From: Promethearchaeota archaeon
Lineage (GTDB): Archaea > Asgardarchaeota > Lokiarchaeia > Sigyniarchaeales > SOKP01
Assembly (NCBI GenBank): GCA_019058245.1
Contig: JAHPZJ010000028.1
Location: forward strand, 96,001 to 160,000
Length of the DNA stretch: 64,000 nt
Direction: 5' to 3'
In this document: piece after piece, positions 8,779 to 30,543 of the stretch
Numbering within the stretch: position 1 is the first letter of the stretch
How the letters are laid out: every line of letters starts with the position of its first letter
The notes under the pieces: generated by a model
Told to the model about the DNA's origin: nothing
What the model saw: only the letters and a program-made list of their open reading frames with translations
The model's database searches: none
Made by a program: the position numbers and the translations under genes

Positions 8779-11190
8779 TTAGGTTCTACAAAGTCTTTTT
8801 AAAAGAGTTGGATCTATTATCTCTTTTGGTTTCCATCCCTTCTCTTTTAGATATGCCATTATCTCATCTTTCATATTAATAGGAATATCCGCTTCCAGAC
8901 GGACAAATTTCTCTAAATCATTAGGAAATTCAACACCCTTATATTTTCTCTCTAAATCGATCCAATGAGATAATTTTATCATTCGTCCTTTAGAATTATC
9001 TGCAGGTCTTAAAGCTAATTTGGCGACTAAACAGATAGCTTGTTCTATACTTTCCGCGGTTGTTAATAGATGTTCAGGTCCAGGTCCCACTAGATGATCG
9101 GCTGTTCCATCTCGAGCATTGAATACTTTCCAAACATCTTCATCATCGGAGCGTCCAATATACATTCTTCTATATTCCGCGGCATGAGGGCCACAAACAG
9201 CTGGTACACCTAAACCATTTGCCATACTTGCAATACTTGCAGCTTTTTGAGACATAGCACCCCATGCAACACCAACTGCTCCAACTCTGTTTAAAACATA
9301 GTCAGCTATTTCTTCAAAATTACCACGTAATGGTCTTCGGGCGAAGATATTAGCAACTTTAATTGCAGCTCCAGTAATATGAGGATTACTTACGCAACTT
9401 CCTACATTTACTAAACCGCCTCTATCAAAATCACCCGGAAATCTATCATATAATGTTTTTCCATCTTCATCCTTTACAAGGCCAATATCCATTGCTCCAC
9501 AGCCTGAAACTACAACTATATAATTTCTTGTTAGAAATTCTTCAGCCATTTTATATAGTTCTTGAATTTCATGAGCATAACTCGCACATCCAATTATTGC
9601 AACAATTCCAGGGATTTCTCCTAAGACAATAGGGGCACCTACATTCCTAATTTCGGTGTCCATAATAGGTCCACGCCCTACTCTACAGTTGAATTTCTCA
9701 TTTCTAATCTGTTCTCTAGCGGCATATTGTAATAAAGTTAAAGGAGATACACCTTTCATACAGTCTCCTTCACATCGTCCACATCCCAAACACTCATCGA
9801 ATGCTCCTGCTAATACTGAGAAATCCCCATCTTTAGCTAATTTTACTCCTTCCACAAGTGGTAAATCATTTGGACAATTTCTTTGACAATTTCCACAGCC
9901 ATTACAATTCATCGCCATATCAATGCAACCTTGTTCATCAGGAACTCCACTTTTTGCTTTTCTAATTGGTTTGACTTTTATTGCAGTTTCAGCTGCTACT
10001 GCACCAGCTTTTATTGGATCTAAAATAAGGACACCGGGTTCCTTTCCACTTACTAAATCATCAACAATTTCATTGATAGGATCAGTGGTTCTATCAGGTA
10101 AACCGCTCATATTCTTTTCATTTGTAGCAATAAATGGAGCTCCAATCAACTGGGCTTGCTCAAATGATCTTAGATTTACACATTGTTCATCAACCATTAC
10201 TACATCTGGAAATCCCGATCGAATCACATGAAGCTGTCTTGACATTGATCCCACAATCTTAGCACCATCATAGTATCTCGTTAAATCATGGGCAGTACAA
10301 CAAATTGCTCCAACATCTACCTTTTCATCTATACCTTTTTCTCTTATATAATCAACTAATTCGACTCCAGGGGCAACGTTATGTCCAATCATCAAAATAA
10401 CTGCCTTACTCGTATCTAATGTTCCCATACCAAGTTCTACAATAGGAACATTAGGATCTCCCATAGGAAATCCGTACGCGGCAATTTGAACAGCATCAGA
10501 AATTTCCATACCTACAGAATCTGCTAATCCTGCTAAAAAGCTTTTTGATTCATAATCTAAATAAGAACTCTCTTGTCCTGTATGTCCCGCCGCTAATAAG
10601 TGTGTTATTGTAAAATGCACCCACTCCATAGCGGTTTCTAAATCTTCTAGGGTTTCAGGTTTCATACCGACAACTAATCTTGTGTGAGGCATCTCAACGG
10701 CTATATTATTCCCAAAATTAATTGGTACATTGCCATACTTTTCTTTTAACCAATGTAATAGATGATCTCCGTGGGCAGAATGGCACGCAGCGCCTATACA
10801 GCAGGCAATCTCTACTATCCGACTCTGTTGTGTCTCCATATTGATCCCGCATGCACCTGTTCGCCCCTTGGAAAGATTACATTTCCCATATGTGCATAAA
10901 CAGCACATATCACATTTGTCGTATATGCACAGATCAATTGTGCATATATATCGGCATGTAAAAAGGTTTGTATCTTTCCATCATTTTGAAAAACCAATTG
11001 CGTAGGGTTGGAATATGGGGCATAGGATTTTACCCTTGAGAAGTCATGCTTCAATCAAGTGAGGTCCCATAGGCTCCCATTCCGTCTCATCTCCGAAAGA
11101 AACTTTACCAGTAGTAAGTTCGAATCCTTTAATCGTTCCGAGAGGACCTTTATATTCATCTATTTTAACTTTAGCTCCTCTTTTTTCCAT
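8779..11190 (-). CDS. cdhA: CO dehydrogenase/acetyl-CoA synthase alpha subunit, three exons: 11190-11061, 11028-10950, 10915-8779 (781 aa spliced)
   Basis: Exon 3 has CCLCTYGKC, HSAH, GHN, CCTAHD, DEQC, two ferredoxin motifs and GSCVSN. Exons 1-2 supply MEKRGAKVKIDEYKGPLGTIKGFELTTGKVSFGDETEWEPMGP-H-PMPHIPTLRNWFFKMMERYKPFYMP-I-CD, matching the conserved CdhA N-terminus (WEPMGPTP...LRxW...RYxPFYxPICDMC). Confidence 0.92.
10916..10949 (-). other. putative BHB-type mRNA intron 2 of cdhA (34 nt)
   Basis: Sense RNA: GCCG-AU^A-UAUAUGCACA auugauc UGUGCAUAUA-CGAC-AA^A-UGU; perfect 10-bp stem; removal gives CCG AUA UGU GAU AUG UGC (PICDMC). Confidence 0.8.
11029..11060 (-). other. putative BHB-type mRNA intron 1 of cdhA (32 nt)
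   Basis: Sense RNA: GACC-UC^A-CUUGA uu GAAG cauga CUUC UCAAG-GGUA-AA^A-UCC; removal gives GGA CCU CAU CCU AUG in frame. Confidence 0.75.
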
Positions 11191-11423
11191 ATATTTTCAC
11201 TCAATTTTATTATTTTAATTTTGATTTCCTTTTTTAATTTTTTATAATTTAAAATAATTTTATTATTATTTGTTATAAATTATCCAATAAAATAAAAGCT
11301 ATTGATTAAGTTTTAAAATCGATATAATAAACTTGTTTATGGATAATTAGTGTGAAATTTCAAACTAAGGTTAAAAATGTCGCTTTTAATTTTAAAAAAA
11401 CAAGGATGAAAAATAAGTTAAAT

Positions 11424-29949: not shown

Positions 29950-30543
29950 ATGAACCAAGTAAACAATGAACAAATCTCTCTTGATAATATTGATTTACCA
30001 GATAAAATCCCAGCAAAATTTATCAATTCAAGAGTTATCGTTTTCAATCCTTTATATGCTTCATATTTATATGTTATTAAAGGTTTTTTTGGTTCTCCTT
30101 TAGGTATAAATAAACCGAGATTAGAATATTTTTCAAAACCAAGTGAATTGTCTCTAATAGAAGCGTATTATTTATTGGAACGTGATGACATTTCTATTTA
30201 TGATATAAAAGAGAATAAGGTTTTAGAACCGAAGGAATTCTATGAGATTGCTAATAAAATTCATCATAAATTTGCAGAGAAATATGTTATTTACAAAGAT
30301 CTAAGGGAAAAAGGATATATACCGAGACCTGGTCTAAAATTTGGAGCGGATTTTGTCGTGTATAAAAAGGGACCTGGTATAGAACATTCACTTTTTATGG
30401 TTCATGTATTACCTCATGATTCTGAAATAACTGCTATTGATATGGTTAGAGCTGGTAGATTAGCAACATCAGTGAGAAAAAAATTTGTTATAGCAAACCC
30501 ACTAACTAAATCATATTATTTCTTTGAATGGTTTAAGCCATAA
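29950..30543 (+). CDS. endA: tRNA-splicing (intron) endonuclease, catalytic subunit
   Basis: LSLIEAYYL, YKDLREKGY, GLKFGADFVVY, GPGIEHS, RLATSVRKK (Tyr/His/Lys triad). Confidence 0.93.
   Translation: MNQVNNEQISLDNIDLPDKIPAKFINSRVIVFNPLYASYLYVIKGFFGSPLGINKPRLEYFSKPSELSLIEAYYLLERDDISIYDIKENKVLEPKEFYEIANKIHHKFAEKYVIYKDLREKGYIPRPGLKFGADFVVYKKGPGIEHSLFMVHVLPHDSEITAIDMVRAGRLATSVRKKFVIANPLTKSYYFFEWFKP

What the first reader, a model, noticed from the sequence alone, without database searches (positions are those of the whole stretch)
10916..10949. Intron 2: perfect 10-bp stem placed directly before the Fe-S cluster Cys motif
UAUAUGCACA/UGUGCAUAUA stem with a 7-nt loop. Central helix GCCG/CGAC has one C-A mismatch; bulges are AUA and AAA; the exon flanks can pair (UACAU/AUGUG). 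Excision at AU^A and AA^A yields P-I-C-D-M-C-C, the consensus CdhA sequence. There is no target-site duplication, which argues against a MITE footprint.
Basis: partly seen in the sequence, partly recalled or inferred. Interest (0 to 1): 0.85.

Follow-up and report, generated by a model that had tools for sequence, protein, structure and literature searches.

The report
tRNA-type mini-intron in Asgard CO dehydrogenase
The only CO-dehydrogenase alpha gene found in this Loki-type Asgard archaeon is broken next to its iron-sulfur cysteines by a 34-base hairpin shaped like a tRNA intron; comparison with relatives indicates that it is cut out of the messenger RNA, which the papers I could search document inside a coding sequence for only one archaeal gene (cbf5), but no spliced RNA was seen here.

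Summary
The 34-nt insert (10916-10949, minus strand) is the second of two that interrupt cdhA, the only copy found in this Promethearchaeota (Lokiarchaeia) genome (76% complete). Removing both gives a 781-aa protein 98% identical to an uninterrupted orthologue.

The hairpin alone is within chance. The comparative evidence is strong: the same insert sits at the same base in six other intact genes, with compensatory stem changes. Unrelated 29-34-nt inserts occupy five more sites in the first 115 codons. In all 24 scored inserts, the best bulge-helix-bulge register also restores the protein. The genes are under purifying selection, and the genome encodes a relaxed-specificity-type EndA and RtcB.

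Best reading: an EndA/RtcB-spliced mRNA intron with a relaxed motif (0.87).

New here: the intron is scattered across the gene tree, and a recombination breakpoint maps to its codon, so it is gained or lost by allele exchange. No nuclease lies nearby.

This scan has noted such introns before on other DNA, including another cdhA intron.

The parts
10916..10949 (-). Intron 2 ('site B'), 34 nt, phase 2 inside Ile70, one base before the Cys71 codon; carries an in-frame UGA at 10936-10934
10952..10955 (-). Exon strand of the central helix (GCCG; includes Pro69 codon CCG)
   Evidence: CCG in all site-B copies against 2 of 50 copies with no intron at B or B'
10949..10951 (-). 5' bulge AUA; predicted cut between 10950 and 10949
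   Evidence: inferred from BHB geometry
10922..10948 (-). Intron stem-loop (10 bp, 7-nt loop)
10918..10921 (-). Intron strand of the central helix (CGAC; CGGU or CGGA in other copies)
10915..10917 (-). 3' bulge AAA; predicted cut between 10916 and 10915; relaxed site
11029..11060 (-). Intron 1 ('site A'), 32 nt, BHB-shaped, in-frame UGA; unrelated inserts at the same base in L019/L204, L205, L309
11061..11190 (-). cdhA exon 1 (130 nt, start ATG at 11190)
10950..11028 (-). cdhA exon 2 (79 nt)
8779..10915 (-). cdhA exon 3; joined CDS 781 aa, CODH/ACS alpha subunit (TIGR00314)
29950..30543 (+). EndA catalytic subunit, 197 aa: Tyr/His/Lys triad and the L1 (CSL) loop Lys55, aligned to K44 of the best PDB match (3p1z/3ajv, Aeropyrum pernix EndA by my knowledge); acts in trans
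   Evidence: PMC5829648

Best explanation
The insert is an ORF-less intron in the cdhA mRNA, removed by the tRNA-splicing machinery. Shown: it breaks the frame and carries a stop; its exact removal, with intron 1, restores an intact CdhA; it has BHB geometry at exactly the borders the protein requires; EndA (two paralogues, one with triad and L1 loop) and RtcB are encoded. Inferred: the heteromeric EndA cuts after the second base of each bulge, using a relaxed HBh'-type motif, and RtcB joins the exons. Unspliced mRNA would give a 49-residue peptide (stop in intron 1) or a 74-residue one (stop in intron 2), so CODH/ACS synthesis depends on two splicing events. Shown: presence of the intron is patchy and coincides with a recombination breakpoint. 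Inferred: it is gained or lost by allelic replacement of the 5' gene segment or a short tract around the site; whether a nuclease drives this is open.
For: Precise absence in orthologues, nearest 98% identical. Same insert at the same base in G002, G016, G032, L070, L308, L309 and a decayed G022 copy. In a 7-copy alignment 91.8% of cells pair, 3 pairs change on both sides, 1 of 500 shuffles reaches the covariation score (copies are related, so not a P value). At 6 positions, 24 of 24 inserts (21 distinct) have their best BHB register among the 1-3 of 17 registers that restore the protein; 10 more inserts cut at their BHB register also give the conserved peptide. Silent-site coupling: Pro69 is CCG in all B copies, CCA in all B' copies. 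dN/dS 0.02-0.08 for pairs with site-B genes and no other lesion. Close pairs that share introns keep the 5' exons under selection (0 nonsynonymous vs 6 silent; 3.8 vs 9.2). Only cdhA in G000 and in G016 (95% complete); cdhB and cdhC present. EndA and RtcB.
Against: This copy has an internal C-A mismatch in the central helix and no exon helix in canonical register; central-helix probability is about 0.4. Met73 follows the intron, so a truncated protein could be made without splicing. The genome is 76% complete, so an intact second cdhA could be unassembled; G002 has one.
Confidence: 0.87

Rival explanations
1. No splicing: ribosomes re-initiate at Met73 (or at an ATG inside the insert) and make an N-terminally truncated CdhA.
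For: ATG at 10908 directly follows. Three site-B copies (L017, L070, L308) have an ATG inside the insert in the exon-3 frame that would keep Cys71. Some clade-A CODHs lack the D-cluster motif (PMC6344411).
Against: This copy has no canonical start upstream of Cys71 in that frame. Sites D and E lie downstream of Met73, D inside the Cys motif, and cannot be rescued this way. 5' exons stay under selection in close intron-sharing pairs. It does not explain BHB geometry or CCG coupling.
Confidence: 0.04
2. The gene is dead or nearly so: the insert is an inactivating footprint, or an intron that this strain no longer splices well.
For: Central-helix mismatch in this copy; the G022 copy with this insert is decayed; an intact paralogue could be missing from the assembly.
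Against: No further lesion in 781 codons; dN/dS 0.023 against G024. The same mismatch variant occurs in G032. Six other site-B genes show no other lesion over the length available, though the inserts differ by up to 7 of 34 bases.
Confidence: 0.05
3. MITE or transposon footprint.
For: Short near-palindromic insert; a 2-nt AT repeat in this copy.
Against: Single copy in the genome; only at this codon in 54 genomes; none in viral contigs. The stem is set in by 1 base at the 5' end and 6 at the 3' end in nearly all inserts, which is BHB geometry, not terminal inverted repeats. The AT repeat is not conserved.
Confidence: 0.02
4. Translational bypass (T4 gene 60 type) over the hairpin.
For: Hairpin plus in-frame stop inside the insert.
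Against: No matched take-off and landing codons in the restoring registers (AUA vs AAA), and the stop lies five codons in (defining features from my own knowledge). Two hops would be needed in one mRNA.
Confidence: 0.01

Closest known systems
cbf5 pre-mRNA intron of Desulfurococcales and Sulfolobales (Watanabe 2002, Yoshinari 2006, Yokobori 2009; PMC2738675)
   Same: ORF-less, within the 16-44 nt range, splits the codon at or beside a key residue, BHB-like and often relaxed borders, host with a hetero-oligomeric EndA.
   Different: Different phylum and gene. cbf5 has one conserved position; cdhA has at least six positions within about 70 codons, up to two per mRNA, unrelated sequences at one site, and a patchy distribution. 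cbf5 splicing is shown by experiment; this is not.
BHB intron in the 5' UTR of Haloferax HVO_1309 (PMC7714728)
   Same: mRNA substrate of EndA.
   Different: Untranslated region, 46 nt; removal is not needed to restore a reading frame.
Non-canonical tRNA introns of Asgard archaea (bioRxiv 10.64898/2026.10.13.758758)
   Same: Same phylum, BHB borders, repeated independent gains, heteromeric EndA background.
   Different: tRNA hosts; the paper's text does not mention mRNA or cbf5 and found no general route of arrival.
Homing-endonuclease introns of crenarchaeal rRNA and their ORF-less deletion derivatives (as described in PMC2738675); collaborative homing in phages (own knowledge)
   Same: Insertion at a highly conserved motif; exchange of flanking DNA with the intron.
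   Different: No nuclease ORF in the intron or beside cdhA, and no orphan gene start in 164 loci.

Membership tests
BHB pre-mRNA intron (cbf5 type) | Interrupts a coding sequence; precise removal restores the conserved protein | tested here: met
BHB pre-mRNA intron (cbf5 type) | BHB or relaxed BHB at the borders, cuts after the second base of each bulge equal to the exon borders | tested here: met
   (relaxed: 3 of 4 central pairs, no canonical exon helix); 4 of 4 pairs in L025, L070, L308
BHB pre-mRNA intron (cbf5 type) | Short and ORF-less (16-44 nt in cbf5) | tested here: met
   34 nt; range from PMC2738675
BHB pre-mRNA intron (cbf5 type) | Host has heteromeric EndA with the specificity loop, and a ligase | tested here: met
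   by sequence only; PMC5829648
BHB pre-mRNA intron (cbf5 type) | Spliced mRNA or EndA cleavage demonstrated | not testable with these tools
MITE | Multiple dispersed copies | tested here: not met
MITE | Terminal inverted repeats and target-site duplication | tested here: not met
   stem inset 1 and 6 bases; AT repeat not conserved
Translational bypass (gene 60 type) | Matched take-off and landing codons with adjacent stop | tested here: not met
Homing cassette (nuclease plus replacement gene start plus mini-intron) | Nuclease gene beside the host gene | tested here: not met
   upstream genes are peptidase C13, isochorismatase, V4R or unknown; no homologue of the cobO-linked nuclease in 164 cdhA loci
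Homing cassette (nuclease plus replacement gene start plus mini-intron) | Orphaned original gene start | tested here: not met
Homing cassette (nuclease plus replacement gene start plus mini-intron) | Foreign 5' gene segment ending at the intron | tested here: inconclusive
   breakpoint after codon 70 between G000 and G024, P 0.002, but which genome received the segment is not determined and such swaps also occur between intron-less pairs

The most novel reading that the evidence does not exclude
In one family of Lokiarchaeia, tRNA-type splicing is obligatory for multi-intron mRNAs of central carbon metabolism, and ORF-less mini-introns are mobile between species: they cluster at the conserved Fe-S motif of cdhA because they arrive by homing-like allele conversion (nuclease in trans or since lost), and one may have slid by one base (site B to B').
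Probability: 0.4. Interest if true: 0.9.

Novelty: new variant of a known kind. Interest (0 to 1): 0.74.

Why it matters
Protein-dependent splicing inside an archaeal coding sequence is documented, in the papers I could search, only for cbf5 (PMC2738675, PMC7714728). A Wood-Ljungdahl enzyme with two such introns, and at least six intron sites across a family of Asgard archaea, would mean that relatives of the eukaryote ancestor routinely splice mRNAs and gain and lose introns on a short time scale. It gives a direct test (RT-PCR or EndA assay on a 76-nt RNA) and a comparative system for how introns arrive, which the recent Asgard tRNA-intron census calls the central open problem. It also affects annotation: public gene calls truncate these CdhA proteins to 709-723 aa.

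Tried and rejected

Search for a full-length protein identical to a spliced intron-bearing gene, as a sign of an RNA assembly: none among about 250 proteins; the nearest, P0174, came from intron-less DNA contigs identical to L018 over the codons compared.

De novo genome-wide BHB plus ORF-fusion scan: 65 candidates against 88-94 in offset controls, and it missed both cdhA introns, so it is uninformative.

Comparison of 209 kb with G024 found no other discordant BHB-like insert.

A loose pattern in metagenome contigs gave mostly chance hits and one true copy, L070.

Rfam: nothing. Viral contigs: nothing. No copy of the insert elsewhere in the genome, tRNA genes included, within 10 mismatches.

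General enrichment of in-frame stops is weak: 17 of 21 against 12.7 expected, and 15 in another frame; not used as evidence.

One search used a mis-registered structure string and is void; one search returned no answer; the exon-1 row was in the wrong frame and is ignored.

The primary paper on Cys ligands of 3CF4 was not held; ligand roles rest on the motif in PMC6344411 and my own knowledge.

Assembly artefact rejected: independent assemblies carry variant copies.

Full report
Setting. The window is G000:C28:96001-160000 of a 29% GC genome, 76% complete. The ORF 8779-10908 (minus) is CdhA, the CODH/ACS alpha subunit (TIGR00314, 981 bits against a cut-off of 781), but it begins at profile position 65, inside the Cys motif. 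The missing N-terminus lies upstream in two other frames.

Observation. Folding alone proves little: z = -1.44, and four such stems in the window fall within the 0-11 of simulations. Two details need correcting. The exon helix UACAU/AUGUG takes the third base of the 3' bulge, so the 3' site is relaxed. A 2-nt AT repeat exists in this copy but not in four others.

It is a precise insertion. Orthologues lack exactly 32 nt (11029-11060) and 34 nt (10916-10949). Removing both gives 781 aa with no other lesion, 98% identical to G024. The insert splits Ile70, one base before Cys71, the first Cys of the type I D-cluster motif C-X-X-C-C (PMC6344411). This is the only cdhA found in G000 and in the 95% complete G016; cdhB and cdhC are present.

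The same insert in relatives. It occurs at the same base in G002, G016, G032, three metagenome contigs (L070, L308, L309) and a decayed copy in G022. In an alignment of seven copies 91.8% of cells pair, three pairs change on both sides (G-C to A-U, C-G to U-A, U-A to C-G with U-G intermediates in other copies), and 1 of 500 shuffles reaches the covariation score. The copies are related, so that count is not a probability, and part of the signal comes from the decayed copy; with five copies it was not distinguishable from shuffles. The central helix is perfect in L025, L070 and L308. Its exon strand constrains a silent site: Pro69 is CCG in all site-B copies but in 2 of 50 copies without an intron at B or B', and CCA in all six B' copies.

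A hot spot. Of 135 genomes in the family 122 have cdhA, and 18 carry an interrupted copy. The inserts are 29-34 nt and sit at six positions: codon 44 (A), 70 phase 1 (B'), 70 phase 2 (B), 72/73 (C), 76/77 (D) and 115 (E). Site A holds four different sequences. The key test is independent of the hairpin's strength: structure alone picks the excision register, homology alone says which of 17 registers restore the protein. They agree in 24 of 24 inserts, 21 of them distinct, and ten more inserts cut at their BHB register give the conserved peptide. The stem is inset by one base at the 5' end and six at the 3' end, which is BHB geometry and not that of terminal inverted repeats. An insert between Pro69 and Cys71 was found only in this family among 400 Asgard genomes, but that pattern needs the local codons to match, so absence elsewhere is weak.

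The genes are alive. dN/dS is 0.02-0.08 in both the 5' exons and the body for pairs involving site-B genes. Close pairs that share introns keep the 5' exons under selection: 0 nonsynonymous against 6 silent changes, and 3.8 against 9.2. Those pairs carry site D, which lies downstream of Met73 inside the Cys motif, so re-initiation cannot explain them.

Machinery. Two EndA paralogues and RtcB are encoded. The one in the window (29950-30543) aligns best with PDB 3p1z/3ajv and keeps the Tyr, His and Lys of the triad and the loop Lys that falls on K44. The second lacks the His at the aligned place (by eye) and is probably the structural subunit. PMC5829648 states that Asgard archaea have the heteromeric enzyme with the L1 loop and that this loop allows cleavage of relaxed HBh' and hBH motifs. 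That fits the relaxed motif here. Cleavage of this RNA is inferred, not shown.

How it spreads. On the tree of the gene body the site-B copies fall in four separate clades with intron-less neighbours; a single clade is rejected (p-AU 6.6e-131). Yet the inserts are 27-32 of 34 identical while flanking silent sites differ at 60-70%, and G000 and G032 share the CGAC variant although their genes are distant. Against G024, silent divergence is 0.45 in codons 2-69, 0.21 in the body and 0.15-0.32 in neighbouring genes; a MaxChi scan puts the breakpoint after codon 70, the intron site (P = 0.002). Among close pairs, the 5' excess is significant in 8 of 11 pairs that differ in introns and 2 of 11 that do not (pairs are not independent). 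So gain or loss goes with allele exchange, but which genome received the segment is not determined, and 5' swaps also occur without introns; the genes upstream of cdhA differ from genome to genome. The two intron-less copies with CCG lie in or beside site-B clades, which fits precise loss there. I confirmed a LAGLIDADG ORF directly beside the interrupted cobO of this genome, absent at the same place in G024. For cdhA I found no homologue of that nuclease and no orphan gene start in 164 loci, and no nuclease among the upstream genes scanned. Homing in trans, a lost cassette and plain hitchhiking on recombination all remain open.

Comparison with what is known. It works like the cbf5 intron and meets every defining feature that sequence can test; the experimental feature could not be tested. 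PMC7714728 (2020) names cbf5 as the only earlier mRNA case and adds a 5' UTR intron; PMC2738675 notes that introns in other protein genes had been predicted but not confirmed. My searches for Asgard mRNA introns found no paper, within a library that lacks most subscription journals. This scan has recorded many such introns in Lokiarchaeia, including another cdhA intron said to be missing from RNA assemblies; I did not check that claim and do not count it.

Verdict. A real, very probably spliced mRNA intron (0.87); a new variant of a known kind; interest 0.74.

Noticed in passing
L200/L201 site B' insert (33 nt) against window 10916-10949: The B' insert, one base upstream of site B, shares a 10-base hairpin core with intron 2, and several other B' loops share CAAUU; B and B' may be one family that slid by one base.
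   Followed up: partly
L017, L070, L308 site-B inserts: A U-A to U-G or C-G change in the stem creates an ATG in the exon-3 frame inside the intron; gene callers start CdhA there (P0033, P0178). Could allow leaky expression without splicing.
   Followed up: partly
window 11191-11423 and L039, L044, L045, L050-L053: The region upstream of cdhA is variable: the V4R-domain gene found there in many relatives is absent here, and different cargo genes (peptidase C13, isochorismatase, a 178-aa protein without Pfam hit) occupy the slot.
   Followed up: partly
G000:C22:45224-47186 (L320): A 433-aa LAGLIDADG ORF lies divergently before cobO, whose match contains an in-frame TAG in a short insert; G024 has neither at this place.
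   Followed up: partly
L034 (G109:C22), near codon 179 of cdhA: After removal of the site-E insert the frame stops again near codon 179; possibly a second intron or a true lesion.
   Followed up: no
L046 (G022:C22:8325-11010): Decayed cdhA with a site-B insert, lost Cys71, frameshifts, a GC-rich foreign stretch and a scaffold gap.
   Followed up: partly
P0004, P0026, P0033, P0039, P0066, P0099, P0115, P0129: Public gene calls of 709-723 aa for CdhA mark intron-bearing genes; truncated length is a usable flag for finding more.
   Followed up: yes
whole genome G000: ARAGORN gives few tRNAs on many contigs, several with odd anticodons or lengths, as expected for multi-intron tRNA genes.
   Followed up: no
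L278: A contig titled as a Nanopelagicaceae bacterium carries a cdhA 88% identical to the Loki N-terminal query; probably mis-binned.
   Followed up: no
G024:C27, opposite G000:C28:198733: A 42-nt insertion bounded by a direct repeat, i.e. a tandem duplication, not BHB-like.
   Followed up: no
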